From an uncultured Bacilli bacterium (GTDB taxonomy: Bacteria > Bacillota_I > Bacilli_A > RF39 > UBA660), in the NCBI GenBank assembly GCA_963931545.1, contig OZ007025.1, forward strand, positions 887,692 to 951,691: a DNA stretch of 64,000 bases, written 5' to 3'. Below are positions 1 through 48,229 of this stretch, piece after piece; position 1 is the stretch's first letter, and each line of letters opens with the position of its first letter. Below the pieces are notes generated by a model. The model searched no databases, was not told the DNA's origin, and worked only from the letters and a program-made list of their open reading frames with translations. A program made the position numbers and the translations under genes.

Positions 1-2
1 AT

Positions 3-215
3 TTAGTTTCTACGAATAAGAAATTAGTACACGATCAAGACGATTATTTTTTCCCAGAGCCAACCTTTTATAGAGTTAAAAAATTTGTAAATAATCACGC
101 AGAAATTATTGACGAATTACCTAAAAATATGACTTATAAAGAATATTTAAAATATAAAGAAAGCACTTATGAGAATAAAAAAGATATTGAAAAAGGCAGC
201 ATGGAATTGGGCTAA
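3..215 (+). CDS. C-terminal fragment of unknown protein, probably mobile-element cargo (ORF continues upstream of window)
   Basis: An open frame runs from the window edge to a TAA at 213-215. It sits directly upstream of the coupling-protein gene. No motif was recognised. Confidence 0.2.
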   Translation, partial: LVSTNKKLVHDQDDYFFPEPTFYRVKKFVNNHAEIIDELPKNMTYKEYLKYKESTYENKKDIEKGSMELG

Positions 216-313
216 ATTTTGGGGTACACATTACCGTATTTATTTGGCTGATAAAAAGAAAATAGCCACTATACTAGTGTATCATCATAAAATTTATATT
301 TTGGATTACAACA

Positions 314-2509
314 ATGATACTAGACAATAACCTGTCTTTTTTTTATGTCTTAATTTTATTTCTAGTAATAGGTGCAATAATATTTATAGTGTTAATACAG
401 CCTAGACTTAATCAAAGAAAAGTAAAAAATAAAAATGAGTATGGCTCATCAAAGTTTGCTACCAAAAAAGAAATTGCTAAAACGTTTAAAAAAGAAAATA
501 TTTATAATATCAAAGAAGCTGGCTTTCCTGTTTATTTTGAAAATAAAAATAATCAGTTTGAATATGTTTACTTTGATAATATAAGTCCTCATTGGCTTTT
601 AATTGGTAGTACTGGCTCTGGTAAATCAGCAACAGTTGTACTTTCAGAGTGTATAATGTTTGCTACTGCTAAAGAAAAAGAAAGCTTAATTATCACTGAT
701 CCTAAAGGCGAAATATTTTCTAAAACTTCTAGTATATTTAAAGATAATGGCTATGAAAATATTATTACTATTGATTTTAGGAATCCTCATTTATCTACGC
801 ATATAAATATTATGCAACCGATTATTGATGAGTGGAAAGTTCATTGTGTATATGAAGAAAAGTTATTTTATTCTATCTGTTATTTATTTCATATTTTACA
901 AATTGATTTTGAACAAATTATTATAAATGAACAATATAAAAATAATATTAAAGTAACTTATAAACTAGATGACTATATCATTGAGTATATTTTAAATAAC
1001 ATTGATGCTATCAAAGATAAACTAGAAAGCGAAGATTTTTTTGATTTATTAAAAGAAAAAGTTGATTATGAATACAAATCTATTAATAATTCGGAGCTTT
1101 TAAATTATATAAAGCAATATCAAAATCAAAGTTCTTCTAGTCAAGCTGAAGCTACTAGACTTATTAATAATTTAGCTGATTTAATATTCGCTGAAAAAGA
1201 AACAAAAGATCCGTTTTGGTTAAACTCATCTAAAAATCTTTTCAAAGGTATTGCTGGTATTTTTTTAGAAGATTACGAAAGTGGCTTGATACCAGAAAAT
1301 AAGATAAATGTTTCTAGTATTAAAAAGTTTCAAAACTCCTCTTTATTAAAAGAAAATCAAATCTATTTACAGAGAAACTTAAATACTAGAGATTATGGTA
1401 CTATTTCAAAAGATTATCTTACTTCTATTTTATCGGCGAGTGAAAATACATATAAATCAATTACAGCTGTCTTTGGCGAAAAAATGCAAATCTTTGATGA
1501 CCTTAATGTAGAAAACATTACTAGCTCTAGTGATTTTGAAATATCTTCTTTAGTTGATAAACCTAGTGTACTTTATATTATCGTTCCTGACGAGGATAAG
1601 AGCTATTACCAGCTCGTTACTATTATTGTAGGTATTCTTTATAAGGAACTAACTAAAATCGCTAATATGCCCCATAATAACGGAAAATTACCACGTAAAA
1701 TTGAGTGGATATTAGATGAGTTCGCAAACTGTCCACCGTTGAGTGATATTGAAACGATCGTATCTGTTGCTAGATCAAGAAATATGCGTTTTCAATTCTT
1801 TATTCAGTCTTTTGCTCAACTAGACCAAGTTTATGGGAAAGAATCATCTTCTATTATTCAAGATAATTCAGCACTTACATATCTAAAAACTAACAGTATT
1901 GACTGTGCCGATGTTATTAGTCGTAAACTTGGTAAATCCACTATTGAAACCCAGTCAATAAGCCAAAGTACTGACACCTTTAAAGTAGGTGCTAATAAGA
2001 CTACTTCTCTACTTGGTAGGGAACTTTTAACGGCTAATGAAATAATCGCTTTAAAATATAAAACTATTATTTTTCCAACCGTTTCTAATCCAATTTTTAG
2101 AGATACTTATTTATATAGTGATATATTTAAAAATTATCAATTTAATCCAATTACTAGACAAATAAAAATGATTAAGAAGAATACTCAAAATTATTATACT
2201 GTTGAACAAATGAGAGCTAACTATGAAAATCAAAATAATGACGAAGATAGTTCTGATGACAGTGATATTATGCCTATTGAAAATAATATATCTAATTTAT
2301 CTTTTGTTATATCCAATATTGAAGATATATTAAAAGTAAAAGCTAATAACAATAAAATAGTTTTAGATAGAAAGATTAATATGTATGAAGAAAACAAAAT
2401 ATTAGAACAACTACTACCTATGATTAATATAGAAATTAAGACTGTAAGTGAAAGTAATAAAACGATTATTACTTTTTTTGATGCTGAAAAGTATCGTTAT
2501 TATTTATAA
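314..2509 (+). CDS. Type IV secretion coupling protein (TraG/VirD4/TraD family ATPase) of a conjugative element
   Basis: The protein has an N-terminal TM helix, a Walker A motif (GSTGSGKS) and a large 731-aa soluble domain. It lies immediately upstream of an excisionase-like and an integrase gene. Confidence 0.6.
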   Translation: MILDNNLSFFYVLILFLVIGAIIFIVLIQPRLNQRKVKNKNEYGSSKFATKKEIAKTFKKENIYNIKEAGFPVYFENKNNQFEYVYFDNISPHWLLIGSTGSGKSATVVLSECIMFATAKEKESLIITDPKGEIFSKTSSIFKDNGYENIITIDFRNPHLSTHINIMQPIIDEWKVHCVYEEKLFYSICYLFHILQIDFEQIIINEQYKNNIKVTYKLDDYIIEYILNNIDAIKDKLESEDFFDLLKEKVDYEYKSINNSELLNYIKQYQNQSSSSQAEATRLINNLADLIFAEKETKDPFWLNSSKNLFKGIAGIFLEDYESGLIPENKINVSSIKKFQNSSLLKENQIYLQRNLNTRDYGTISKDYLTSILSASENTYKSITAVFGEKMQIFDDLNVENITSSSDFEISSLVDKPSVLYIIVPDEDKSYYQLVTIIVGILYKELTKIANMPHNNGKLPRKIEWILDEFANCPPLSDIETIVSVARSRNMRFQFFIQSFAQLDQVYGKESSSIIQDNSALTYLKTNSIDCADVISRKLGKSTIETQSISQSTDTFKVGANKTTSLLGRELLTANEIIALKYKTIIFPTVSNPIFRDTYLYSDIFKNYQFNPITRQIKMIKKNTQNYYTVEQMRANYENQNNDEDSSDDSDIMPIENNISNLSFVISNIEDILKVKANNNKIVLDRKINMYEENKILEQLLPMINIEIKTVSESNKTIITFFDAEKYRYYL

Positions 2510-2533
2510 AAAATGAAAGGAGGAATTACTTAT

Positions 2534-2830
2534 ATGCCTAATGATGAAGTTATTGATTATTTAAAAAATATTACTGTCTGCGAATTTATATCTTTAATGG
2601 CTAATAATGATAAAACTAAAAATACTTCTACGGTTTATACTACTGATGAATTATTAGAACACTATCCAATGTTTAGTAGATTTACTTTAAACAAAGCTAT
2701 TAAGGAGCAAAAATTACCATACTATCGTGAGGGACACAAAATGTATTTTGAAAAGAAATTAGTCGATCAATGGATTAATGAACATACTTCTACTTATACC
2801 AAGAGAAATAAAGATAAATATAGGCTATAA
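2534..2830 (+). CDS. Excisionase-like HTH DNA-binding protein (Xis/HTH_17-like)
   Basis: A small basic protein whose C-terminal half resembles excisionase-family HTH domains. An AAAGGAGG RBS sits 10 nt before the ATG at 2534 (the track ORF starts earlier, at 2513). The gene sits between the T4CP and integrase genes. Confidence 0.45.
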   Translation: MPNDEVIDYLKNITVCEFISLMANNDKTKNTSTVYTTDELLEHYPMFSRFTLNKAIKEQKLPYYREGHKMYFEKKLVDQWINEHTSTYTKRNKDKYRL

Positions 2831-2839
2831 GACAGAATT

Positions 2840-4120
2840 ATGAGTGAAACAAAGAAATATCCATATACAGTAGAGCCTAATATAATTAAATTAGCTCCAA
2901 ATTATTATAGAATATTGATAAAAAAAGGTAGTGGTAAAAATCAACAAGTATTTTCTGAATATGTATCAGGTAAAATTGGAGATGCTAGAGCTGTTAAAAG
3001 AAAGGGTTTTGCAGAGTTAGAAAATCAAAAAGCAAAAGAAAAGGATAAAGGAAAAATAACATTATTTGAATTTAGTAAAGAGTGGTTACAATTTTGTAGA
3101 GATACAGGATTAAGCCCTACAACTATAAATGGTTATAAAACTAGATTAAATAATTATATATTACCAGAACTAGGTGGCTATCCGTTAGAAAAAATAAATG
3201 CTTATGTTATTGATAAGCTATTTGTAGAATTAAAAAACCGTGATAAACAAACACCTAATTCAGATGGGGAAATAGAAAAATTATCCTCATCTTCTTTAAA
3301 TGGTGCATACCGAGTTTTAAGAAATTTATTAAACAGAGCTGTTATATGGGATTATATCGAATATAATCCTATTCATAAAGTAAAATGTCCATCAGCAAAA
3401 CCTCGTAAAGAAAAAGAAACTTATAATAAAGAAGAATTATTTACTACAATTAAGTTATTATTAGACTACAATAAAAAATATGGTGGTATGTTTATTATTG
3501 ACTGTTGTACTGGTTTAAGAAGATGCGAGTTAAATGGACTTCATATTGAAAAAACAAGAAAGCATGATAAAGATATAGAATTAGACGTTGAGTTTGTTAA
3601 TAAAGATGGTGAAAAATATATCGGTGGACTTGTGTTCGCTAGACACTCTGTTGTTTTTGACAAAGAGCTTAAAAAGGTTGTTGAAAGAGATATACCTAAA
3701 ACCGAAAAAGGAAAACGTGGTATTCCAATACCCCCTATATGTGTTGAAGCAATACGTGAGTGTATAAAATATCGTGAAAAAGAAATCCAGTTATTAAGAA
3801 ATAAATACGGTAAAGATTTAGAAATTGTCCCAAATTTATTTTTAGGAAAAACTGGAGGCTTAATGCACCCAGATACTTTGAGCCATAACTGGACTAAATT
3901 CAGAGAAAGAAATAAAGGGTTACTACCAAATAAAAATGTAACTCTTTATGGGTTACGTCATAGCTTTTGTACTTATATGAGAACTAATCCAGAAATTACT
4001 ATAAATGAAATCATGAATTTAATGGGACATACAGACGAAAAAACAACCGATAATTATACCCACTCAAATAGAGAAATTGGCGATAAAATTATTGGAATGT
4101 GGGACGGTTTAGAGCTTTAA
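2840..4120 (+). CDS. int: Tyrosine-type site-specific recombinase / phage-ICE integrase
   Basis: The C-terminal catalytic domain carries the expected R (GLRRCEL), HxxR (LRHSFCTYMR) and GHTD...NYTHS (catalytic Tyr) signatures. It also has an N-terminal SAM-like and arm-binding region. The gene lies next to a tRNA 3' fragment. Confidence 0.8.
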   Translation: MSETKKYPYTVEPNIIKLAPNYYRILIKKGSGKNQQVFSEYVSGKIGDARAVKRKGFAELENQKAKEKDKGKITLFEFSKEWLQFCRDTGLSPTTINGYKTRLNNYILPELGGYPLEKINAYVIDKLFVELKNRDKQTPNSDGEIEKLSSSSLNGAYRVLRNLLNRAVIWDYIEYNPIHKVKCPSAKPRKEKETYNKEELFTTIKLLLDYNKKYGGMFIIDCCTGLRRCELNGLHIEKTRKHDKDIELDVEFVNKDGEKYIGGLVFARHSVVFDKELKKVVERDIPKTEKGKRGIPIPPICVEAIRECIKYREKEIQLLRNKYGKDLEIVPNLFLGKTGGLMHPDTLSHNWTKFRERNKGLLPNKNVTLYGLRHSFCTYMRTNPEITINEIMNLMGHTDEKTTDNYTHSNREIGDKIIGMWDGLEL

Positions 4121-4182
4121 AATAAAGGGAATTAACTAAAGTTGATCAACTTTTTAGTTAGTTCCCACTTTTTTTGTTTTTT

Positions 4183-4215
4183 AGTACCCATTTTAGTACC
4201 CACTTTTGTTAAAAT
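4183..4215 (+). repeat. Two tandem direct repeats TTTTAGTACCCA(T/C), candidate integrase arm-type binding sites
   Basis: The direct repeats were read from the sequence between the integrase stop and the tRNA fragment. Confidence 0.3.
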
Positions 4216-4360
4216 GAGTTAAAATGATTAAAAATAATTGATAGTAATTTAAAATTAAATTATAATTAATTTGTTAATACAAATAAACGAAAAGTATTGT
4301 TTTTCCTGTGTTTATTGACTGTTTGTGTTTTATGGGTGTTAATAATAGTTGATAGGTATT

Positions 4361-4421
4361 TTGAAAACGCAGTTGACTTCTAAGGCGTGGGTCGTAGGTT
4401 CGAATCCTACTGGGGACGCCA
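4361..4421 (+). tRNA. 3' partial tRNA (anticodon loop through CCA), probable attR remnant
   Basis: The sequence TTGAAAA-CGCAG, a long variable region, the T-arm GTAGGTTCGAATCCTAC, the 3' acceptor strand TGGGGACG and CCA are all present. No complementary 5' acceptor strand (GTCCCCA) occurs upstream, so the gene is truncated at the anticodon loop. A UGA anticodon with a long variable arm suggests tRNA-Ser. Confidence 0.55.
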
Positions 4422-4433
4422 TTTTAGATAATT

Positions 4434-4462
4434 AAAGCCCTTGAATTGCAGGGCTTTTTTTA
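4434..4462 (+). terminator. Rho-independent terminator
   Basis: The hairpin AAAGCCC-ttgaattgca-GGGCTTT is followed by a T-run. Confidence 0.6.
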
Positions 4463-4544: not shown

Positions 4545-5906
4545 CTACTTTATATATTTATTATTTTTTTGACAAATAATACCAATATTCCAATCATTTT
4601 CACCAAGATTATCTTTTAGATATGAAAATATATTTATTATTTTAAAATTATGTTTTTCTAATAGTTCGATTATATCTTCTATTTTGAAACAAAAAATTTG
4701 TTCTTTGATATTTATGGTTATATTTTTATTTTTATCTTGTATATGATAGGAATATTCTAAATCAAGAATGTTTTTTGAGTTTAATTTGGCATTTGATTTT
4801 CTTTTTATTGTAATTTCTTTATCGTTAACTTTTTTTTCTTGAGGTGATAGTCCTTGATGCATAATACCTTTTAAATTATAAAAATTAAAATAAAAATATC
4901 CATTTTCATTTAGTACTTGATATATATTTTTAATCATGTCTTTTACTTTTTCTTTTGTTAATTGGTAATCTATCACATGTGATAAGGCAATTACACAATC
5001 ATATTTCTTTTGTGGAATATTTTTGGTGATATCTAAACATTCATATAATATATCTTTGTTTTTACGTTTAGCATATTCTATCATATCTGGGCTTATATCT
5101 ATTCCTTCTATTTTTAAGTTATTTTCTTTTAGATATTTATCATGTTCTCCTGTACCACAGCCAACATCTAATATAGTTTTTATATTGTTTTCTTTTAAAA
5201 ATTTTAATAGTATATTTATTTCTTTTTTAAAATTGCTATTTTTTAAGAAAAATATATCATAGTAATTTACTAGTTTTCCTTGAAAAGATGATGTTTGAAT
5301 GTTATTTTCTTTATCTCTTTTCAGTTTTGAGTAAATACAGCCACAGTAATCTTGACGATATAGGCCAAATTCTTTGGATAGTTCAATACTTCTTTTATAT
5401 CCATTTTTCTTTTTAAAATCAGCATATAAGTATGTTGGTTTATACTCAAAATTTAAATTTTCTCCTATTTCATTTAACCAGTTACTATTTTTATAAGGAC
5501 TGATGGAAAGTGTTGTTGTAAAATAATCAAAATTGAGCTTTTGTGCTACTTGTGCGGTTTCTCTTAGTCTTAATTCATAACATTTGTAGCACCTTTTTCC
5601 TCTTTCTTTTTCTTCTTCTAATCCTTTTGACATGTCAAAAAATTCTTGCGGATTATATCTTCCATCTAGAACTTTGATATTGTTTTTTTGAAGTTTTTGG
5701 ACAAATGTTTTTATTTCGCTTAGTCTTTTTTGATATTCTTTTTTATCTGTTATATTAGGGTTATAATAAAAAATGGTAATATCAAAGTAGTCAGTTAGTC
5801 TTTCTAAAACAGCTGATGAACATGGTGCACAACAGGCATGCAATAGAAGTGATTTTTTTTCTGATAAGTTTTGTATTTGACGCTCCATCTCTAAATCGTA
5901 GTTCAT
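4545..5906 (-). CDS. queH: Epoxyqueuosine reductase QueH (DUF208) fused to a C-terminal class I SAM-dependent methyltransferase domain
   Basis: The N-terminal 200 aa carry the QueH Cys cluster (LLLHACCAPCS, CYKCYELR, DYCGC). The C-terminal 250 aa carry methyltransferase motif I (LDVGCGTGEH), the post-I motif (IEGIDIS) and motif II (YDCVIAL). Confidence 0.6.
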   Translation of the reverse strand: MNYDLEMERQIQNLSEKKSLLLHACCAPCSSAVLERLTDYFDITIFYYNPNITDKKEYQKRLSEIKTFVQKLQKNNIKVLDGRYNPQEFFDMSKGLEEEKERGKRCYKCYELRLRETAQVAQKLNFDYFTTTLSISPYKNSNWLNEIGENLNFEYKPTYLYADFKKKNGYKRSIELSKEFGLYRQDYCGCIYSKLKRDKENNIQTSSFQGKLVNYYDIFFLKNSNFKKEINILLKFLKENNIKTILDVGCGTGEHDKYLKENNLKIEGIDISPDMIEYAKRKNKDILYECLDITKNIPQKKYDCVIALSHVIDYQLTKEKVKDMIKNIYQVLNENGYFYFNFYNLKGIMHQGLSPQEKKVNDKEITIKRKSNAKLNSKNILDLEYSYHIQDKNKNITINIKEQIFCFKIEDIIELLEKHNFKIINIFSYLKDNLGENDWNIGIICQKNNKYIK

Positions 5907-6091
5907 TATCCCACCTCTTTCCCATTATACCATATTTTATATATATTTTACCTAGTAATGACTATAAGAGTTGGTATGAAATTTCAATATTTAATTATTT
6001 TATATTTTTTGTTAAATGAATTTTAGTAAATTATGATTTTTTCAAATAAATTTCACATAAATTGGTTATCCTATATTTGAGGGAGATGGAT

Positions 6092-7690
6092 ATGAAAAAA
6101 CATAAAAAGAAATTTTTGATAGGACTTTTAATTATTTTAGTTTTAGGCGGATTAGGATTTGGGGGGTATAAATATTATCAATATTATGATGATACAAAAT
6201 TAGAAAATAAAAATTGGATGAATAGACATATTGCTTTAGAAGAAAATGAAGAGGGAGTATATGAAGTAAATACTATTAACACTAATGAAGATATATCTAT
6301 TTTTAATTTGGTTTATCAAGATACTATTGAAAATAAAATTGAAAATTTAAAAGATGATGGTAATTATTCTTTAGAAAATCCTTTAATTATATATAATCCT
6401 TATGGTACAGCAAGTCAATCTTATTATGTATATTTAGGTAATAGTTATGATAATTTAAATTATACTATTAGTGTGGATGGATATGAGGATTATGAACATG
6501 ATTTAGGAGAAGATAATGAATATCAATTAATTGGATTTATTCCTGGAAAAACAAATACTTTGACTATAAGTTCAAATGGAGAAAGTGTAATAAAAGAAAT
6601 TACTACTCCTGATATTAAAGCAGATGTTGATTTAAAACTTGAAGAAACATCTTCAAGTGATGAGGATTTAACTGAAGGATTATATACTGTTTTAGGACAT
6701 GATAAAAATTATGAAGCTAATGTTTATCTATATGATAATAATGGTATTTTAAGAAATGAACTTATTTTAGATGATTATAGAGCTGATAGAATTATATTTG
6801 ATGATGGATATATGTATTACCCTTATGAAAGCCGTGGAATTATGAAAGTTAATTCTTTAGGTAAGATTGAAAAAATGTATGATTTAGGAAAATACAGAAT
6901 GCATCATGATATGATTTTAGATGGTAATAATTTAGTTATTTTAGTAGATGAGGTTGGCTCTGATACTAAAGAAGATGTCATTATTTCACTTAATCTTGAA
7001 AATGGAAAAATTGATAACATAATTGATATGAAAGATTTACTACCAGAATTATATGAAAAAGCTATTTTACCAGAGGATAACAAAACTTTAGATTGGTTAC
7101 ATTTAAATAGTTTAACTTTAAAAGATGATGATTTGATTTTAAGTTCAAGAGAACTTTCGACAATTATTTATTTATCTGATTATAAAAATAATCCTACTAT
7201 TAAATATTTGATTACAAATGAAAGTATGTTAGAAGGAACTAGTTATAAAGATTTACTTTATACTAAAAAAGGCAGTTTTATAGATAGTGCGGGACAACAT
7301 GCAATTACATATATGCCTTTAGATGATGATGAATATTATTTATATATGTTTAATAATAACTATGGCTCTATTGTTACAAGACCTGATTTAAATTGGGATA
7401 ATTATCCTGATGTTGGAAGTTATGAGGAAGGAGAAACATCTTATTTTTATAAATATAAAGTTAATGATGAAGATAAGACATATGAACTTGATGAGAGTTT
7501 AGAGATTCCTTATTCTAGTATTGTCAGCAGCGTGCAGATTTATGATGATAATTTAATTGTCGGTAGTGGTATGGATAATTCATTTGGCGAATATGATGAA
7601 GATGGAAATTTAATTAAACAGTTTACATATGGAGCTAAAAAGTATGCTTATAGAGTGTTTAAGTATTCATTTGATAATTGGTTTAATTAA
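6092..7690 (+). CDS. Membrane-anchored arylsulfotransferase (ASST)-family beta-propeller protein, paralog 1
   Basis: The protein has an N-terminal TM helix, an N-terminal NPYGT motif and an HHD motif. It is similar to the second copy at 46499-48229. A GAGGGAG RBS precedes the ATG at 6092. Confidence 0.4.
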   Translation: MKKHKKKFLIGLLIILVLGGLGFGGYKYYQYYDDTKLENKNWMNRHIALEENEEGVYEVNTINTNEDISIFNLVYQDTIENKIENLKDDGNYSLENPLIIYNPYGTASQSYYVYLGNSYDNLNYTISVDGYEDYEHDLGEDNEYQLIGFIPGKTNTLTISSNGESVIKEITTPDIKADVDLKLEETSSSDEDLTEGLYTVLGHDKNYEANVYLYDNNGILRNELILDDYRADRIIFDDGYMYYPYESRGIMKVNSLGKIEKMYDLGKYRMHHDMILDGNNLVILVDEVGSDTKEDVIISLNLENGKIDNIIDMKDLLPELYEKAILPEDNKTLDWLHLNSLTLKDDDLILSSRELSTIIYLSDYKNNPTIKYLITNESMLEGTSYKDLLYTKKGSFIDSAGQHAITYMPLDDDEYYLYMFNNNYGSIVTRPDLNWDNYPDVGSYEEGETSYFYKYKVNDEDKTYELDESLEIPYSSIVSSVQIYDDNLIVGSGMDNSFGEYDEDGNLIKQFTYGAKKYAYRVFKYSFDNWFN

Positions 7691-11187: not shown

Positions 11188-12123
11188 TTAATATTTACCG
11201 CATTTACTTCCCCATGAGTCAACTAACTCATCATTTCTATATATTTTAAGAAGTTCACAGTTATTAGAACATCTATGACATTCAAAACCTTTAGTTATAA
11301 ATTTTAAATTTTGCATTTCTAATGAATATTCATTTCCGTTTTTATTTTTTTTAGCTAAAACAGCTATACCAATAGCTCCCATCAAATGACTATTTTCATC
11401 AACTATAATATCTTCTTTTAATATTTCTTTAAAATATTTAACTACTCCTTTGTTTTTGGAAACCCCACCTTGAAAAATAATTGGTGGGATTATTTTTTTA
11501 CCTTTACCAACATTATTTAAATAATTTAAAACGACACTTTTACAAAGTCCAGCAATTATATCTTCTTTAGGATAACCTACCCCAGCTTTATGAACTAAAT
11601 CGGATTCCGCAAATACTGTACATCTAGCAGCTATTTTTACAGGGTTTTTAGATTTTAAAGCATAATCTCCAAATTCTTCTACATTTATGCCGAGTCTTTT
11701 AGCTTGACTAGATAGAAATGAACCTGTTCCAGCCGCACATAAAGTATTCATGGCATAATTTGTTATTATTCCATTTTTTATCAAAATTATTTTAGAATCT
11801 TGACCACCAATTTCTAAAATAGTTCTAACATTAGGATAAAAGGTTAATGTTCCAATGGCATGTGCTGTTATTTCATTTTTTACAATATTAGCATTTAACA
11901 TTAAACCAATTAATTTTCTTGCACTTCCTGTTGTGCCAATACCTTTTACTTTATAATCTTTAGGTATTTTATCTTTTAAAATATTTAATAATTTTTTTAC
12001 AGCTTGAACGGGATTACCTTCAGTCCAAATATAACTAGAGGTTAAAATATTATTATCATTATCTATGATAACTCCTTTGGTTGAAATAGAACCAATATCA
12101 ACTCCTAAATAACATTCTTTCAT
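11188..12123 (-). CDS. BadF/BadG/BcrA/BcrD-type ATPase, CoA-substrate-specific enzyme activase (HgdC-like)
   Basis: The N-terminus has the activase signature (LGVDIGSISTKGVIIDNDNNIL), an ASKHA fold and C-terminal Cys residues. Confidence 0.6.
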   Translation of the reverse strand: MKECYLGVDIGSISTKGVIIDNDNNILTSSYIWTEGNPVQAVKKLLNILKDKIPKDYKVKGIGTTGSARKLIGLMLNANIVKNEITAHAIGTLTFYPNVRTILEIGGQDSKIILIKNGIITNYAMNTLCAAGTGSFLSSQAKRLGINVEEFGDYALKSKNPVKIAARCTVFAESDLVHKAGVGYPKEDIIAGLCKSVVLNYLNNVGKGKKIIPPIIFQGGVSKNKGVVKYFKEILKEDIIVDENSHLMGAIGIAVLAKKNKNGNEYSLEMQNLKFITKGFECHRCSNNCELLKIYRNDELVDSWGSKCGKY

Positions 12124-13181
12124 TTGTTTTTCCTCATTTCTAACATATCATAAAAAGCTTCTAATCTAGTTTTAATTCCCGTTTCTGAAGTGGTGGTATC
12201 AAAACTAAAAAATAAAACTGGTTTTTGATATGTACTTGCAATTTTATTAATTATAGGCATAGCTCCTATTTCAGGCGTACAGAAAGATGATTTAATATGA
12301 ATTATTCCATCGTAATCATTTTCACATAAGTATTTACATCTTGCGATATTATCAGAAGCATCAGCTCCCATATTATATTTAAAATATTCTTTAGCATATT
12401 TTTTGTATTTTTTAGTTTTTTTTGCTTTTTCGAATAACAAATAATGAACATTGGTAAACCTTTTAATTTCAATATGATGTTTAGCTAACTGTTTTTCTAA
12501 AAAATAGTTAGAAAATGGCTCCATTATAGTATATAACTCTCCTATTATTCCAATTTTAATCCTATTATCTGGTTTATGAATTTTTATTTTATGGAATTTA
12601 TTTAAATATTTTTTATATGTTGGTTTTAATTCTTTATATCTTTTAATATGAGAAAATTCTATAAGCATTTCTTTTTTTAGACTTTCAAAAGTACCTTTTT
12701 TTATCTCAAAACCTATATTTTCTCTAATATAATTATCTATCTCATCCATATATTTAACCATTTTAAATGTAATAAAACTATAATATAAAGCTTTTATTTT
12801 AGAGTATTTTGGATTTATAATTTTCAACAACTTATTTATCCTTTTAAATCTAGTAACTCCTTCTGTAACTAAATTAATTATGGTACATTCATAACCTAAA
12901 TCTTTAATAATTTTTTCTTGCACCTCTGCATAATAACCATATCTACATCCTCCACCCATTTGAATTAAAATATCGGCTTTTTCTTCTAAACATTCTATCA
13001 TTGTTCCTAAAGTATATTTAAATGGTGTACATACAAATTCTGGAGAATACTTAGTACCTATTTCTACTGTTTTATTAGTTATTTTAGGAGCTTTGATTAC
13101 TTTTACATTTGGAAATATATGTGAAAGTAAGTAATTTGCAGGAACATAATAATCGCCCATTTGTGGAAATGCTATTTTCAT
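12120..13181 (-). CDS. 2-hydroxyacyl-CoA dehydratase component-D-like (HGD-D/DUF2229) protein
   Basis: Family-level resemblance to HGD-D proteins. Start and stop overlap the neighbouring genes, indicating a coupled operon with the activase. Confidence 0.45.
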   Translation of the reverse strand: MKIAFPQMGDYYVPANYLLSHIFPNVKVIKAPKITNKTVEIGTKYSPEFVCTPFKYTLGTMIECLEEKADILIQMGGGCRYGYYAEVQEKIIKDLGYECTIINLVTEGVTRFKRINKLLKIINPKYSKIKALYYSFITFKMVKYMDEIDNYIRENIGFEIKKGTFESLKKEMLIEFSHIKRYKELKPTYKKYLNKFHKIKIHKPDNRIKIGIIGELYTIMEPFSNYFLEKQLAKHHIEIKRFTNVHYLLFEKAKKTKKYKKYAKEYFKYNMGADASDNIARCKYLCENDYDGIIHIKSSFCTPEIGAMPIINKIASTYQKPVLFFSFDTTTSETGIKTRLEAFYDMLEMRKNK

Positions 13182-14074
13182 TTAATCCCTCCAAGCATAT
13201 CTAGAAAACTTTCTAATCTAGTTTCTATTCCTGTAAAAGAAGATGTATCATCGATAACTAAATTTAAATAAGGAATGTTTATTTTTCTCATAGCAAGTTC
13301 ATTAGCTAAACTATCAGGGGCGCATGGAAATGAAGATATAAATATAACACCATCAATTTTATCTTTACAATATATGATAGAGCCTAAATTATCTTTACTA
13401 TATTTGAAATATAAATCTTTTGACAATTCTTTACTTAAATTATTAGTTATTTTGGAATCAAATTTATCTGAATAAATAAGGGTAACTTCATTTTTAATTA
13501 AATAATTTAAAATATCTTTACCAATCATTTCATCATATAAATTATAAGGATGGCTGATAATTAGTATTTTTAAATTTTTACTTTTTAATTTATTTAAATT
13601 AATAATATGATTCTTTTTAATTCTCTTTTTTTCTTTTATATAGGCATATTTATAAGCTTTTTTTATTTGATATTTATTTTTATTTAACTCTTTACCTATT
13701 TTATATAATCCTTTTTTTAATGTCTGATGTTTTTCTAAATCAATATTATAATTTAAAATCTTATTTTCAAATAAATTTTTAACAATATCATATACAGCCC
13801 AAAAATTAGTACATGTCTGATTATTATTTTTAAAATTACTAATTCTTGGAACTAATATATAATCACATTTATCTTTTAAGTATTCTATATGACCCAAATA
13901 TGTTTTTAAAGATAAACACATCTCATCGTTAGCAAGTTTTTCTCCTTTATCTATAATATCTTTGTTGGTGTTTGGACTTATTACATAAGTTATATTTAAA
14001 CTATCAAAAAAATCTTTCCAAAAATCACCATAGTAATAATAAAACAAACCACGCGGAATACCAATTTTGTTCAT
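13178..14074 (-). CDS. HGD-D/DUF2229-like protein, second subunit
   Basis: A paralogous architecture that overlaps the previous gene by 4 nt. Confidence 0.4.
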   Translation of the reverse strand: MNKIGIPRGLFYYYYGDFWKDFFDSLNITYVISPNTNKDIIDKGEKLANDEMCLSLKTYLGHIEYLKDKCDYILVPRISNFKNNNQTCTNFWAVYDIVKNLFENKILNYNIDLEKHQTLKKGLYKIGKELNKNKYQIKKAYKYAYIKEKKRIKKNHIINLNKLKSKNLKILIISHPYNLYDEMIGKDILNYLIKNEVTLIYSDKFDSKITNNLSKELSKDLYFKYSKDNLGSIIYCKDKIDGVIFISSFPCAPDSLANELAMRKINIPYLNLVIDDTSSFTGIETRLESFLDMLGGIK

Positions 14075-36872: not shown

Positions 36873-37154
36873 TTATTTTCTATGATACATTGTACGAATT
36901 AATATTTTTCTATTATTATTTAAATTATCTAATCTTAACTTTGTGCATTGTAATGAGGTAATACCTGCTGTTTCAATAATCATACCAGCACAAAAGAATG
37001 CTGAATCAGCATTTAATACTCCATGAGTTATAGCAATAGCACCAGCGAAAATGGTAAATTTTTCTGCTAATTGTTTTATATTTTCGTTAGCTATTTCATC
37101 TTCCTCTCTTAAAATGTCATTAACTATTAATTCGTTTTTTTTATTAAATTTCAT
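36873..37154 (-). CDS. Small hypothetical protein, translationally coupled to trmK
   Basis: The ORF has its own AAAGGAGGA RBS and an ATG overlapping the trmK stop (ATGAAATTTAA). The 93-aa product has a hydrophobic C-terminal half. Confidence 0.3.
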   Translation of the reverse strand: MKFNKKNELIVNDILREEDEIANENIKQLAEKFTIFAGAIAITHGVLNADSAFFCAGMIIETAGITSLQCTKLRLDNLNNNRKILIRTMYHRK

Positions 37155-37608
37155 ATTGTCCTCCTTTATTTTTAGCATATATAATATTATATGTTTTTCC
37201 ATCTTCTATAAAAACTTCTTTATAAATGTAATAATTTTTTGTTTTTAAAAATTCTTTTAATAAATCAATGTTAGTATGGCTTGATAGTATTAAATCATTA
37301 GTTATATCCATGTTTAATATTTTTATTATACTATGAGTACCCATACCGCTTATAACAATTATTTCATCTTTTAATTGTATGTTTTCCAATCCATTATTAG
37401 TTATAGCTTGAATATTTGCTTTATATTTTTCGGCATTTGTTTTGGCTGTTTTTGTACAGAATGGAGATTTGTCTATGGCTAAGCAGTGACAATTTTTATA
37501 TTTATTTAAATAGATGTCTAAAAAGGCGTGGTCTGAGCCAACGTCTATTATATTACTATTTTCATTTATTAAATCACAAATAGCTTGCAACCTTTTAGAT
37601 AACTTCAT
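37144..37608 (-). CDS. trmK: tRNA (adenine22-N1)-methyltransferase TrmK, short form lacking the C-terminal coiled-coil
   Basis: The sequence LSKRLQAICDLINENSNIIDVGSDHAFLDIYL matches the TrmK/YqfN N-terminus. The position directly downstream of rpoD matches B. subtilis. Confidence 0.7.
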   Translation of the reverse strand: MKLSKRLQAICDLINENSNIIDVGSDHAFLDIYLNKYKNCHCLAIDKSPFCTKTAKTNAEKYKANIQAITNNGLENIQLKDEIIVISGMGTHSIIKILNMDITNDLILSSHTNIDLLKEFLKTKNYYIYKEVFIEDGKTYNIIYAKNKGGQYEI

Positions 37609-46498: not shown

Positions 46499-48229
46499 AT
46501 GAAAAAAATTATTGCAAAATATATACTTTTAATTGTTATAACATTTGCTATTTCTATTTATATATACGAGTATGTTATGTCTAATAAACCAATTGATACA
46601 GAAGAAGATATACTTTATTTACAGTCACAAACTCAAAGTCAATATTTAAGTAATACTAATTACACAATTGATAAGCCTAACGTTATTTTAAATCCTTATG
46701 GTAATTCGCCACTTACGGCTTTAATTGTATTTCAAACCAAAGATTTAACAACAGCTACGGTTACTATTAAAGGAAAAGATGGTGCGGATGATATAAAACA
46801 CACCTTTACCCCTACTAAGATTCATATTTTACCAATTTATGGACTTTATGCAGGATATGATAATAAAGTTATAATTGAAGTTAGTGGAATAACTAAAGAG
46901 ATTACTATTACAACAGCTCAACTTCCTGACAATTTTTCTAAGGTAACTGATTTATCTAATGATAATTTTGATACTGATGAGTTTTATTTTACAACACCTG
47001 AAGAAATTGGTTATACTGCGGCCTATGACAAAAATGGCGAGGTCAGATGGTATTTGGTTGGCGATTATAAATGGGATATTCAAAGACTTAATAATGGGCA
47101 TATTTTACTTAGTAGTGATAAAATCTTAAAGAAAAATTATAGTATTGGTTTAATTGAAATGGATTTACTTGGTAAGATTTATTATGAATATGCTATTCCT
47201 GGAGGATATCATCACGATGTTTATGAACTAAATAATGGAAACTTACTACTAGCTTCTAATAAGTATGAAAGAGATACTACTGAAGATTTGGCAATTGAAA
47301 TTGATAGAGCAACAGGAACTATTGTTAAAGAAATAGACCTTTATAAGATATTACCTGGAAGTAAAAAAAATAATTGGTTTGGTATGAATTCAATTAATTA
47401 TGATATTAATACTAATTCTATTACTATTTCTGGATATAATGGTAATATGATTGTTAATTTAGATTATACTACTTTGGATATAAACTGGATTATAGCTGAT
47501 GAAAATAAAGTAGATAATGATTATAAGCAATATTTATTAAAATCTAATGGACACATTGATTATCCTAATAACCCTGAATCTGTTAATTTATTAAGTAACA
47601 ATAGAATGGTGTTTGTTAGTAAGGTTGGTAGTAAAAAACACTTACTCACTTATAAAATAGATTATACTAATAGAACTGTTTCAGAACTGGATGATTACAA
47701 ACTTTCTAATAATGATGAAACTTATTTGGAAATTTTGGGAGATAATGACTTTGTTATTACCCAAGGTCATACATTAATGGAAATTCAAAATGGTAAAAAA
47801 GTCATTAGTATGAATGTTAATTCAACTTTATATAATACTAAAAAAATGAGTTTATATGCGAATGATATATATACTGGTGTACAAGGGGTTAGACTTGGAA
47901 GTTTAGGAGAGTCTATTACAACGAAAAATCATATTCTTTTAGGTGCTAAGAACGATGATAGTATTTTGGATAAATACAATATCACTCTTTATAAGGATGT
48001 GTTTGGTCTAAAGGTTAAAGGAACTTTTAAAGAAAGTGATGAAGTACAAATTATATTAGATAATGTTTTAGATAAAAAAACATATGATTTTTTAATTCCT
48101 ACTGATTCTGATAAAAAAATTACCACTTCGCGTTATATTAGTGAAGATGGTATTAAAGGGAAATATTATATTTACTTAAGGATTAATGGTACTATTTATA
48201 AGTTAAAAAAATATGTTATTTTCTATTAA
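46499..48229 (+). CDS. Membrane-anchored ASST-family beta-propeller protein, paralog 2
   Basis: An N-terminal TM helix, the motifs NPYGNSPLTAL and GYHHDVYELNNGNLLLAS, and paralogy with 6092-7690 support the call. Confidence 0.4.
   Translation: MKKIIAKYILLIVITFAISIYIYEYVMSNKPIDTEEDILYLQSQTQSQYLSNTNYTIDKPNVILNPYGNSPLTALIVFQTKDLTTATVTIKGKDGADDIKHTFTPTKIHILPIYGLYAGYDNKVIIEVSGITKEITITTAQLPDNFSKVTDLSNDNFDTDEFYFTTPEEIGYTAAYDKNGEVRWYLVGDYKWDIQRLNNGHILLSSDKILKKNYSIGLIEMDLLGKIYYEYAIPGGYHHDVYELNNGNLLLASNKYERDTTEDLAIEIDRATGTIVKEIDLYKILPGSKKNNWFGMNSINYDINTNSITISGYNGNMIVNLDYTTLDINWIIADENKVDNDYKQYLLKSNGHIDYPNNPESVNLLSNNRMVFVSKVGSKKHLLTYKIDYTNRTVSELDDYKLSNNDETYLEILGDNDFVITQGHTLMEIQNGKKVISMNVNSTLYNTKKMSLYANDIYTGVQGVRLGSLGESITTKNHILLGAKNDDSILDKYNITLYKDVFGLKVKGTFKESDEVQIILDNVLDKKTYDFLIPTDSDKKITTSRYISEDGIKGKYYIYLRINGTIYKLKKYVIFY

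What the first reader, a model, noticed from the sequence alone, without database searches (positions are those of the whole stretch)
4545..5906. QueH (epoxyqueuosine reductase) fused to a SAM-dependent methyltransferase domain
QueH normally stands alone at about 200-250 aa. Here the intact QueH Cys-cluster domain is followed in the same polypeptide by a complete class I methyltransferase domain (GCGTG motif I, acidic post-I motif, motif II). This suggests a bifunctional tRNA-modification enzyme, possibly coupling the last step of queuosine synthesis to a methylation of Q or a neighbouring nucleotide. I do not recognise this as a described architecture.
Basis: partly seen in the sequence, partly recalled or inferred. 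Interest (0 to 1): 0.5.

Follow-up and report, generated by a model that had tools for sequence, protein, structure and literature searches.

The report
QueH–methyltransferase fusion, a strain-variable add-on
A gut bacterium's tRNA-queuosine enzyme QueH really is fused to a complete methyltransferase, but the methyltransferase is a recently inserted, laterally spreading, strain-variable module related to sugar methyltransferases, so a link to queuosine chemistry is possible but unsupported.

Summary
ORF 4545-5906 (-) encodes 453 aa: an intact QueH (aa 1-194, all invariant Cys) joined to a complete class I SAM methyltransferase (aa 205-453). The identical protein occurs on 17 public contigs, so it is not an artefact.

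- QueH is a promiscuous fusion partner: 47 of its 120 nearest clusters carry one of about 18 unrelated partner types, including PrmC and another methyltransferase.
- All 80 related species have a standalone QueH with no methyltransferase nearby.
- In a sister species at 78% identity, a ~790-bp methyltransferase module with no start codon sits exactly between queH and murC. It replaces the QueH tail and is present or absent among near-identical strains (449-aa and 207-aa alleles).
- The module's synonymous divergence between the two lineages (0.61) is less than half that of the QueH halves (1.41), which suggests lateral spread.
- Its six closest standalone relatives all lie in glycan or nucleotide-sugar clusters.
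- Its structural neighbours are TylM1/DesVI-type small-molecule methyltransferases, not RNA methyltransferases.
- Both halves are under purifying selection (dN/dS 0.10 and 0.21).

Most likely these are two independent activities on one polypeptide. A methylated queuosine is not excluded.

The parts
4545..5906 (-). Whole fusion ORF, 453 aa plus stop codon (QueH + class I SAM methyltransferase)
   Evidence: Identical to P0303, which is on 17 public contigs.
5325..5906 (-). QueH (epoxyqueuosine reductase) domain, residues 1-194. It ends at the invariant ...YRQDYCGCIYSK block. Cys motifs: CCAPC at 5820-5834, CYKC at 5580-5591, CGC at 5337-5345.
   Evidence: Pfam PF02677 E=4.7e-71. 7lc5 E=5e-32. 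All invariant residues present. AF2 pLDDT above 90 for residues 1-190.
5295..5324 (-). Junction, residues 195-204 (LKRDKENNIQ). These are the first residues of the inserted module and take the place of the ancestral QueH tail. They are predicted to be flexible.
   Evidence: L016/L081 breakpoint right after codon 194. Standalone methyltransferases align from their residue 2 to fusion residue ~199. pLDDT below 50 for residues 201-214.
4548..5294 (-). Class I SAM-dependent methyltransferase domain, residues 205-453, TylM1/DesVI-like fold. Motif I (LDVGCGTG) at 5148-5171. No start codon of its own (the first Met is M275).
   Evidence: Pfam. AF2 pLDDT 92.5, pTM 0.90. Foldseek hits at TM 0.80-0.81 to TylM1 and CalS10. 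Motif and Met positions. GC 20.1% against 28.7% in the QueH half.
5911..5932 (-). Likely expression signals for the whole fusion: an extended -10 (TGgTATAAT, 5932-5924) and a Shine-Dalgarno (GAGGTGG, 5917-5911) about 5 nt before the ATG
   Evidence: Read directly from the sequence. Inference only. The consensus scan did not list it because no -35 matches.
4434..4457 (+). G+C-rich hairpin followed by a T-run, lying between tRNA-Arg and the 3' end of the fusion gene. Terminator-like on the + strand and possibly bidirectional.
   Evidence: 2 terminator-like sites found against 0.3 expected
4377..4421 (+). 3' 45 nt of a tRNA-Arg(TCT) gene. This is the attachment-site remnant at the junction with the integrative element. 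It is context, not part of the fusion.
   Evidence: Window/L082 collinearity ends at 4377. Intact tRNA-Arg(TCT) in L082 and L083. No tRNA found in the window. Sequence.
1..4376 (+). Integrase-proximal end of an integrative, conjugative-type element: T4 coupling protein 314-2509, HTH_17 2513-2830, tyrosine integrase 2840-4120. It was inserted after the fusion formed. It is context, not part of the fusion.

Best explanation
The gene is a young chimera. A complete small-molecule or sugar-type SAM methyltransferase ORF, lacking its own start codon, has replaced the non-conserved last ~12 codons of queH. It is therefore translated only as a C-terminal extension of QueH, from queH's promoter and ribosome-binding site.

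The N-terminal domain should do the normal QueH job, the Fe-S-dependent reduction of epoxyqueuosine to queuosine at tRNA position 34. This is inferred from homology and intact ligands. The C-terminal domain is tethered by a flexible segment of about 14 residues. It most likely retains an activity of its own on a sugar-like or other small-molecule substrate, as its relatives are expected to have, and this activity would be unrelated to queuosine.

The methyltransferase module is accessory. It is present or absent among near-identical strains and appears to have moved between related gut Bacilli lineages, probably by homologous recombination anchored in the ultra-conserved 3' end of queH. In the sister lineage the second anchor is murC.

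Shown: the architecture, the intact motifs, the insertion junctions, the polymorphism, the purifying selection, and the family context of the methyltransferase. Inferred: both enzymatic activities, the substrate class, and the route of spread.
For: Architecture and integrity.

Recent insertion: all 80 related species representatives have a 196-258 aa standalone QueH, and no methyltransferase homolog lies within ~8 kb. L081 and L087 (fusion) are collinear with L001, L004, L006 and L008 (Zip, DHH | queH | murC) except for ~750 nt encoding the methyltransferase. L016 is 97.9% identical to L081 over 2.9 kb but carries the ancestral tail KKERELIKLEHIS* and no methyltransferase. The flanks become identical again ~35 nt before murC.

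Polymorphism: the >=90%-identity cluster of P0002 lists 8 fusion (449 aa) and 6 standalone (207 aa) members, and they share QueH haplotypes.

Lateral spread: on the QueH tree each fusion lineage groups with standalone QueHs. dS is 1.41 in the QueH half against 0.61 in the methyltransferase half for the same pair. dS(window-L001 QueH) is 0.67. The methyltransferase half has GC 20% against 29%.

Functional but unrelated to RNA: dN/dS is 0.10 (QueH) and 0.21 (methyltransferase). Foldseek's top 50 are TylM1, DesVI, CalS10, KedS8, PsmD, CypM, CcbJ, GNMT and the like, with no RNA methyltransferases. Six of six closest standalone relatives (35-44% identity) sit in glycan or nucleotide-sugar clusters. 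The tRNA-methyltransferase models are far below cutoff.

Fusion promiscuity of QueH: 47 of 120 clusters and about 18 partner families, including PrmC, BPL, Ala racemase, Amidase_3, CCA-adding enzyme, HAD and MTHFS.

No confident domain packing: full-length pTM 0.51, linker pLDDT below 50.
Against: In this clade the module has only ever been seen fused to QueH. The nearest unfused relative is 44% identical among 1.84 billion representatives.

The fusion has survived lateral transfer, relocation to a new locus in the window lineage, and 22% protein divergence, all under purifying selection.

No glycan genes lie near it in the window or in the sister locus. A single-gene accessory enzyme must therefore act on a substrate that every strain already has, and Q-tRNA is one such substrate.

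The domain is basic (pI 8.9) while its relatives are acidic (pI 4.8-6.3), although its Lys bias at 20% GC can explain this.

From general chemistry rather than any tool result: the aminocyclopentenediol of queuosine resembles an aminosugar, which is the substrate type of TylM1-like enzymes.

The difference in dS could partly reflect rate or composition heterogeneity rather than transfer.
Confidence: 0.55

Rival explanations
1. This is the first reader's idea: a bifunctional tRNA-modification enzyme. QueH makes queuosine and the tethered methyltransferase then methylates Q (its secondary amine or a ring hydroxyl), a neighbouring anticodon-loop nucleotide, or a free queuosine precursor. The result would be a strain-variable Q derivative.
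For: Both domains are intact and under purifying selection. The module is only ever seen fused to QueH in this clade and kept that arrangement through transfer and relocation. No glycan partners lie nearby. The domain has a basic pI. TylM1-like enzymes N-methylate amino groups on sugar rings (PDB descriptions), and from my own knowledge Q carries an aminosugar-like aminocyclopentenediol. From my own knowledge, there is precedent for oxidoreductase-methyltransferase fusions that act in sequence on a wobble base (MnmC).
Against: QueH is fused to about 18 unrelated partner families, so fusion by itself carries little information. The persistent fusion has a simpler explanation: the module has no start codon of its own. 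There is no similarity to any tRNA or rRNA methyltransferase model or structure beyond the shared Rossmann core. Relatives lie in glycan clusters. The module is dispensable within a species. No confident inter-domain interface is predicted. No methylated queuosine turned up in the papers I searched.
Confidence: 0.12
2. A neutral or nearly neutral passenger. The methyltransferase module is tolerated on the permissive C-terminus of QueH but has no substrate or role in these genomes and is on its way to being lost.
For: The module is present or absent within a species. It has very low GC and high Lys content, which suggests drift. Its dN/dS is twice that of QueH. One contig carries a nonsense codon, and a few truncated members exist.
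Against: A dN/dS of 0.21 over dS = 0.6 is clear purifying selection. All SAM-binding motifs are intact in both lineages. In the window lineage nearly all members are full-length. The domain model is of high confidence.
Confidence: 0.1
3. An artefact: a sequencing error, frameshift or assembly chimera has joined two separate genes.
For: None was found. The possibility was raised only because the architecture is unusual.
Against: The identical protein is on 17 contigs from independent sources, some of up to 1.36 Mb. Three further contigs carry a 78%-identical ortholog with the same frame and junction. The junction region has dN/dS of 0.15. The methyltransferase half has no start codon or ribosome-binding site that would let it be a separate gene.
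Confidence: 0.01

Closest known systems
QueH / DUF208 epoxyqueuosine reductase (Pfam PF02677; Thermotoga maritima QueH, PDB 7lc5)
   Same: The N-terminal 194 residues match the full-length profile (E=4.7e-71) and 7lc5 (E=5e-32). All family-invariant Cys and other residues are present, and the fold is predicted with confidence.
   Different: The non-conserved C-terminal tail is replaced by a 259-residue extension. Position 29 is Cys (CCAPC), as in its close relatives, where the T. maritima protein has Asp (alignment). Activity was not tested.
TylM1 / DesVI / CalS10 / KedS8 nucleotide-aminosugar N-methyltransferases, and related small-molecule class I methyltransferases (1y8c, 3d2l, 1wzn, PsmD, CypM, CcbJ)
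   Same: The fold is the same, a Rossmann core plus a beta-sheet cap (TM 0.76-0.81, Foldseek probability 1.0). It has the N-terminal YYD helix and GxGxG motif I. Its closest standalone sequence relatives sit in nucleotide-sugar or glycan clusters.
   Different: Sequence identity is only 12-19%. Substrate-binding residues were not compared. No sugar-pathway genes lie next to it here, and it is fused to QueH with no start codon of its own.
Other QueH fusions found here: QueH-PrmC (P0195), QueH-MTS methyltransferase (P0213), and QueH-APH, -GNAT, -NUDIX, -GrpB, -Amidase_3, -BPL, -Ala racemase, -HAD, -MTHFS, -CCA-adding enzyme
   Same: QueH is at the N-terminus with an unrelated complete enzyme appended after the CGC motif. 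This shows that the QueH C-terminus tolerates extensions.
   Different: The partner families are different. The two other methyltransferase partners belong to the MTS/HemK class, not the TylM1-like class. The fusion in this window is confined to two closely related lineages.
MnmC (bifunctional FAD oxidoreductase + SAM methyltransferase for mnm5s2U34).
   Same: It is a redox domain and a class I methyltransferase on one chain. In MnmC both act in sequence on the wobble nucleoside.
   Different: There is no homology to either MnmC domain. MnmC is conserved across species as a fusion, whereas here the methyltransferase is strain-variable and its relatives are associated with glycan clusters. Sequential action was not shown.

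Membership tests
QueH (PF02677, epoxyqueuosine reductase) | Full-length match to the family profile above the curated threshold | tested here: met
   238.9 bits against a cutoff of 23.5, profile positions 1-173 of 175. 7lc5 E=5e-32.
QueH (PF02677, epoxyqueuosine reductase) | Conserved metal-ligand cysteine motifs (CCxPC, CxxC, CGC) and other family-invariant residues | tested here: met
   C25, C26, C29, C106, C109, C188 and C190, plus 28 other invariant columns, are all present in the window protein.
QueH (PF02677, epoxyqueuosine reductase) | Converts oQ-tRNA to Q-tRNA, in a genome that also has tgt and queA | not testable with these tools
   There is no assay. No tgt or queA lies within the 64-kb window, and the rest of the genome could not be read.
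Class I SAM-dependent methyltransferase | Profile match above threshold, with motif I GxGxG and an acidic residue after beta-2 | tested here: met
   Methyltransf_25 scores 62 bits against 27, and Methyltransf_11 scores 54.5 against 21.2. LDVGCGTG 246-253 and EGIDIS 267-272. D, C/G, G, T, G and D are invariant in the family alignment.
Class I SAM-dependent methyltransferase | Rossmann-type seven-stranded fold | tested here: met
   AF2 pLDDT 92.5, pTM 0.90. 993 PDB chains at E<=0.001, all methyltransferases among those shown.
TylM1/DesVI-type nucleotide-sugar N-methyltransferases | Close structural match, including the cap domain | tested here: met
   TM 0.80-0.81, rmsd 2.4-2.8 A over ~245 columns to 4oqe, 3pfg and 3bxo.
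TylM1/DesVI-type nucleotide-sugar N-methyltransferases | Sequence-level family membership and substrate-binding residues | tested here: inconclusive
   Only 15-17% identity. phmmer E~1e-7 over the N-terminal ~90 residues only. Catalytic and sugar-binding residues were not compared.
TylM1/DesVI-type nucleotide-sugar N-methyltransferases | Encoded within a nucleotide-sugar or glycan biosynthesis cluster | tested here: not met
   This is not the case in the window or in the sister locus. It is the case for 6 of 6 closest standalone relatives.
Known tRNA/rRNA methyltransferase families (CmoM, TrmN, TrmB, RlmA, Hen1 and others) | Score at or above the curated NCBIfam cutoff, or a top structural match | tested here: not met
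   CmoM scores 27.5 against 366. RlmA-type scores 22.6 against 303. Hen1 scores 18.4 against 340. No RNA methyltransferase is in the Foldseek top 50.
Bifunctional wobble-base modification enzyme (MnmC-like logic) | Both domains act on the same tRNA nucleoside, and the fusion is conserved wherever the pathway exists | tested here: not met
   Conservation fails: 80 of 80 related species and about 40% of the listed conspecific alleles lack the methyltransferase. Whether both domains act on one nucleoside cannot be tested here.

The most novel reading that the evidence does not exclude
The tethered TylM1-like methyltransferase has been recruited to methylate queuosine itself, either at the secondary amine or at a hydroxyl of its aminosugar-like cyclopentenediol. 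The product would be a previously unknown methyl-queuosine in tRNA, and it would be strain-variable within gut Bacilli species because the module comes and goes by recombination at the 3' end of queH. Some of the other common QueH partners (APH-type kinases, GNAT acetyltransferases, GrpB) belong to enzyme classes that decorate aminocyclitols. By extension they might also derivatise Q.
Probability: 0.08. Interest if true: 0.8.

Novelty: new variant of a known kind. Interest (0 to 1): 0.33.

Why it matters
If the plain reading is right, this is a well-resolved natural example of how a new multidomain protein forms. A methyltransferase ORF with no start codon is captured onto the permissive C-terminus of a housekeeping tRNA-modification enzyme. 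The event is caught while still polymorphic within a species and while spreading between species. It is also a warning that 'Rosetta-stone' inference from QueH fusions is unreliable, because QueH is fused to about 18 unrelated partner families.

If the minority reading is right, gut bacteria would carry a strain-variable, methylated form of queuosine. That would be a new tRNA hypermodification at the wobble position, in a micronutrient pathway that hosts depend on. The coexisting 449-aa and 207-aa alleles give a natural isogenic comparison that makes the question directly testable.

Tried and rejected
1. **The neighbouring integrase/T4SS element created or delivered the fusion.** Rejected. Same-species contigs L082 and L083 have the fusion without the element. 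The element's junction lies in tRNA-Arg, 124-168 bp beyond the stop codon.
2. **P0121 (174 aa, 74% identity) is a standalone or decayed methyltransferase.** Rejected. It is a gene-calling artefact of the same fusion, one contig end and one contig with a nonsense codon at codon 8.
3. **The methyltransferase is a conserved neighbour of queH that merged by loss of a stop codon.** Rejected. No methyltransferase homolog lies within ~8 kb of queH in 80 related species, and the ancestral downstream neighbour is murC.
4. **The standalone allele L016 is a deletion derivative.** Rejected. It retains the ancestral QueH tail shared with L003-L008.
5. **A murC remnant lies downstream of the window-lineage gene, as a trace of transfer.** None was found.
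6. **The basic pI of the methyltransferase domain indicates RNA binding.** Inconclusive. 31% of the window's proteins have pI above 8.5, and the domain is Lys-rich at 20% GC.
7. **Full-length alignment A3.** MAFFT misaligned the standalone methyltransferases onto QueH, so A3 was discarded. The first methyltransferase-only alignment, A1, used wrong coordinates.
8. **The primary QueH papers.** They could not be retrieved by DOI or by a guessed PMC id. Statements about the QueH metallocluster rest on the PDB match and on my own knowledge.
9. **Literature searches.** They found no description of a QueH-methyltransferase fusion or of a methylated queuosine.
Full report
**1. The observation**

The window holds an uninterrupted ORF at 4545..5906 on the minus strand, 453 aa long.
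- Pfam places QueH (PF02677) on residues 20-194. The match covers profile positions 1-173 of 175, with E=4.7e-71.
- Several overlapping class I methyltransferase models (Methyltransf_25, 11, 12, 23 and 31) cover residues ~235-424, all above their curated cutoffs.
- The solved T. maritima QueH (7lc5) matches residues 19-204 at E=5e-32.
- In a 31-sequence alignment of close QueH homologs, the seven invariant cysteines (C25, C26, C29, C106, C109, C188, C190) and 28 other invariant positions are all present in the window protein.
- The methyltransferase half carries LDVGCGTG (246-253), an acidic post-I motif EGIDIS (267-272) and CLDITK (290-295).
- Modelled alone, the methyltransferase half folds with pLDDT 92.5 and pTM 0.90.

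The fusion is not an artefact. The identical protein (P0303) is recorded on 17 contigs of up to 1.36 Mb from three sources. Two same-species contigs (L082, L083) carry a 99%-identical gene. Three contigs of a second lineage (L081, L086, L087; protein P0002, 78% identity) keep the same frame and junction.

**2. The organism and the locus**

The closest genomes are uncultured gut 'Tenericutes'/Bacilli MAGs. The window is about 25-27% GC and otherwise encodes ordinary chromosomal genes: topA, gyrAB, obg, rnc, sigA, dnaG, comEC, ftsW, def, ileS, ddl, a Mur ligase and femAB. No queuosine-pathway or glycan genes are present.

The fusion gene has its own extended -10 (TGgTATAAT) and a strong Shine-Dalgarno just upstream of its ATG. 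The methyltransferase half has no start codon before M275, which lies beyond motif I, so it can only be made as part of the fusion.

Downstream, the window is 99.2% identical to L082 only as far as position 4377. L082 and L083 have an intact tRNA-Arg(TCT) there. The window keeps only its 3' 45 nt (4377-4421). To the left it carries a tyrosine integrase, an HTH protein and a type IV coupling protein. This integrative element therefore arrived after the fusion existed and is unrelated to it.

**3. How the fusion arose**

A scan of one genome per species returned 80 loci with QueH at 60-87% identity. In every one, QueH is a standalone ORF of 196-258 aa. None has a homolog of the methyltransferase half within about 8 kb.

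In the sister lineage the locus is collinear with four related species: Zip, DHH | queH | murC. The only difference is about 750 nt encoding the methyltransferase, which sits between queH and murC.

L016 is the species-representative MAG closest to L081. It is 97.9% identical to L081 over 2.9 kb up to codon ~194, lacks the methyltransferase, and becomes identical again about 35 nt before the murC start. L016 retains the QueH tail KKERELIKLEHIS*, as in L003-L008. The standalone form is therefore ancestral, and the fusion form is an insertion of ~790 nt that replaces ~70 nt.

The standalone methyltransferase relatives align from their residue 2 to fusion residue ~199. A whole ORF minus its start codon was captured.

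The >=90%-identity cluster of P0002 lists eight 449-aa and six 207-aa members. The same QueH haplotypes occur in both forms, for example P0324 with P0319 and P0325 with P0327. This is a within-species presence/absence polymorphism shuffled by recombination. In the window lineage nearly all members are full-length.

**4. Evidence for lateral spread**

On a QueH-domain tree the two fusion lineages are not sisters. The window groups with standalone L001. L081 groups with standalone L016 and with L003-L007.
- Between window and L081, synonymous divergence is 1.41 in the QueH half (1.58 and 1.26 in its two sub-halves).
- For the same pair it is only 0.61 in the methyltransferase half (0.59 and 0.62).
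- The window and L001 QueH genes differ by 0.67.
- The methyltransferase half is also compositionally distinct, at GC 20.1% against 28.7% and GC3 12% against 20%.

In both lineages the 5' junction lies immediately after the invariant ...YRQDYCGCIYSK block. My inference is that the fusion formed once and then spread between lineages by homologous recombination anchored in that conserved 3' end of queH. In the sister lineage the second anchor is murC. In the window lineage the whole gene now sits in a different locus, between an arylsulfotransferase gene and tRNA-Arg. Rate heterogeneity is an alternative explanation for part of the dS difference.

**5. What the two halves do**

Both halves are under purifying selection between the lineages: dN/dS is 0.10 for QueH, 0.15 for the junction and 0.21 for the methyltransferase. 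Neither is decaying.

QueH function is inferred from homology and intact ligands.

For the methyltransferase, no NCBIfam equivalog comes near its cutoff. This includes the tRNA enzymes, for example CmoM at 27.5 bits against a cutoff of 366. The Foldseek top 50 in the PDB are uncharacterised small methyltransferases (1y8c, 3d2l, 1wzn), the nucleotide-aminosugar N-methyltransferases TylM1, DesVI, CalS10 and KedS8, natural-product C-methyltransferases, CypM, CcbJ and glycine N-methyltransferase. The best have TM 0.76-0.81, and none is an RNA methyltransferase.

The family is small. The nearest unfused relatives are 35-44% identical. All six examined lie inside glycan or nucleotide-sugar clusters containing DegT aminotransferases, NTP-transferases, epimerases, GT1/GT2/GT56, NeuB, CMP-sugar synthetase, acyltransferases and MptE-like genes.

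The full-length model gives a confident QueH domain, a disordered segment at 201-214, and pTM 0.51, so no confident inter-domain interface is predicted.

**6. How informative is fusion to QueH?**

Among the 120 nearest QueH clusters, 47 carry an extra domain. The counts are:
- APH-type kinase: 14
- GNAT: 7
- Amidase_3: 6
- NUDIX: 4
- GrpB: 4
- PAP2, alanine racemase, biotin ligase: 2 each
- TsaE, ThiF, MBL, TonB_C: 1 each
- this methyltransferase: 2

The exhaustive representative search added fusions to PrmC (257.9 bits against a cutoff of 199.1), an MTS-type methyltransferase, HAD, 5-formyl-THF cyclo-ligase and a CCA-adding enzyme. QueH's C-terminus is clearly permissive, and fusion alone says little about function.

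**7. Verdict**

The most likely reading (about 0.55) is a young, accessory chimera with two independent activities. The methyltransferase depends on queH only for its expression.

Four points keep it alive:
- the module is only ever seen fused to QueH;
- no glycan partner genes lie nearby;
- the domain is basic, though this is probably compositional;
- from general chemistry, queuosine's aminocyclopentenediol is aminosugar-like.

No paper found here describes this architecture or a methylated queuosine.

I rate it a new variant of a known kind, with moderate-to-low interest. Its main value is as a clean case of domain capture caught in progress. The coexisting natural alleles make the speculative reading cheap to test.

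Noticed in passing
window 1-4421: This is the integrase-proximal end of an integrative, conjugative-type element: TraG/VirD4 coupling protein 314-2509, HTH_17 2513-2830, tyrosine integrase 2840-4120. It is inserted into tRNA-Arg(TCT). Only the 3' 45 nt of the tRNA remain, at 4377-4421. Same-species contigs L082 and L083 have the intact tRNA and no element. The other end of the element lies outside the window.
   Followed up: yes
proteins P0008-P0119 and P0156-P0233: QueH is a remarkably promiscuous fusion partner in gut Firmicutes: 47 of the 120 nearest clusters and about 18 partner families. QueH-APH (PF01636, ~525 aa) is the commonest, at 14 clusters, and looks old and conserved. APH, GNAT, GrpB and methyltransferase partners belong to enzyme classes that decorate aminocyclitols and aminosugars. 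Other partners (PrmC, BPL, Ala racemase, Amidase_3, CCA-adding enzyme, HAD, MTHFS, TsaE) share no such theme.
   Followed up: partly
L087:445-1794: One sister-lineage contig, at ~3x coverage, has an in-frame stop at codon 8 of the fusion gene (MNYDLEM*KQ...). This is either a sequencing error or a naturally inactivated allele. It caused the gene caller to report a spurious 174-aa protein (P0121).
   Followed up: partly
L002-L008, L016, L081, L087 (queH-murC junction): In this clade queH lies immediately upstream of murC (20-30 codons apart) and downstream of a divergent DHH phosphoesterase and a Zip transporter. The window lineage has lost this arrangement. Here queH-MT sits between an arylsulfotransferase gene and tRNA-Arg, and no murC ortholog is in the window.
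   Followed up: partly
window 6062-7690 (+) and 46499-48229 (+): There are two arylsulfotransferase (ASST, PF05935) paralogs in one 64-kb window of a small-genome gut bacterium. One of them is divergently transcribed from the fusion gene.
   Followed up: no
window 37144-37608 (-): A short (154 aa) TrmK-like tRNA (adenine22-N1) methyltransferase ORF lies directly downstream of sigA and dnaG. It covers only about two thirds of the Pfam TrmK profile (positions 1-140 of 205).
   Followed up: no
window 11188-14074 (-): Three adjacent genes encode a BadF/BcrA-type ATPase activase and two HGD-D/DUF2229 proteins (2-hydroxyacyl-CoA dehydratase-like). They sit next to topA and are conserved in L082.
   Followed up: no
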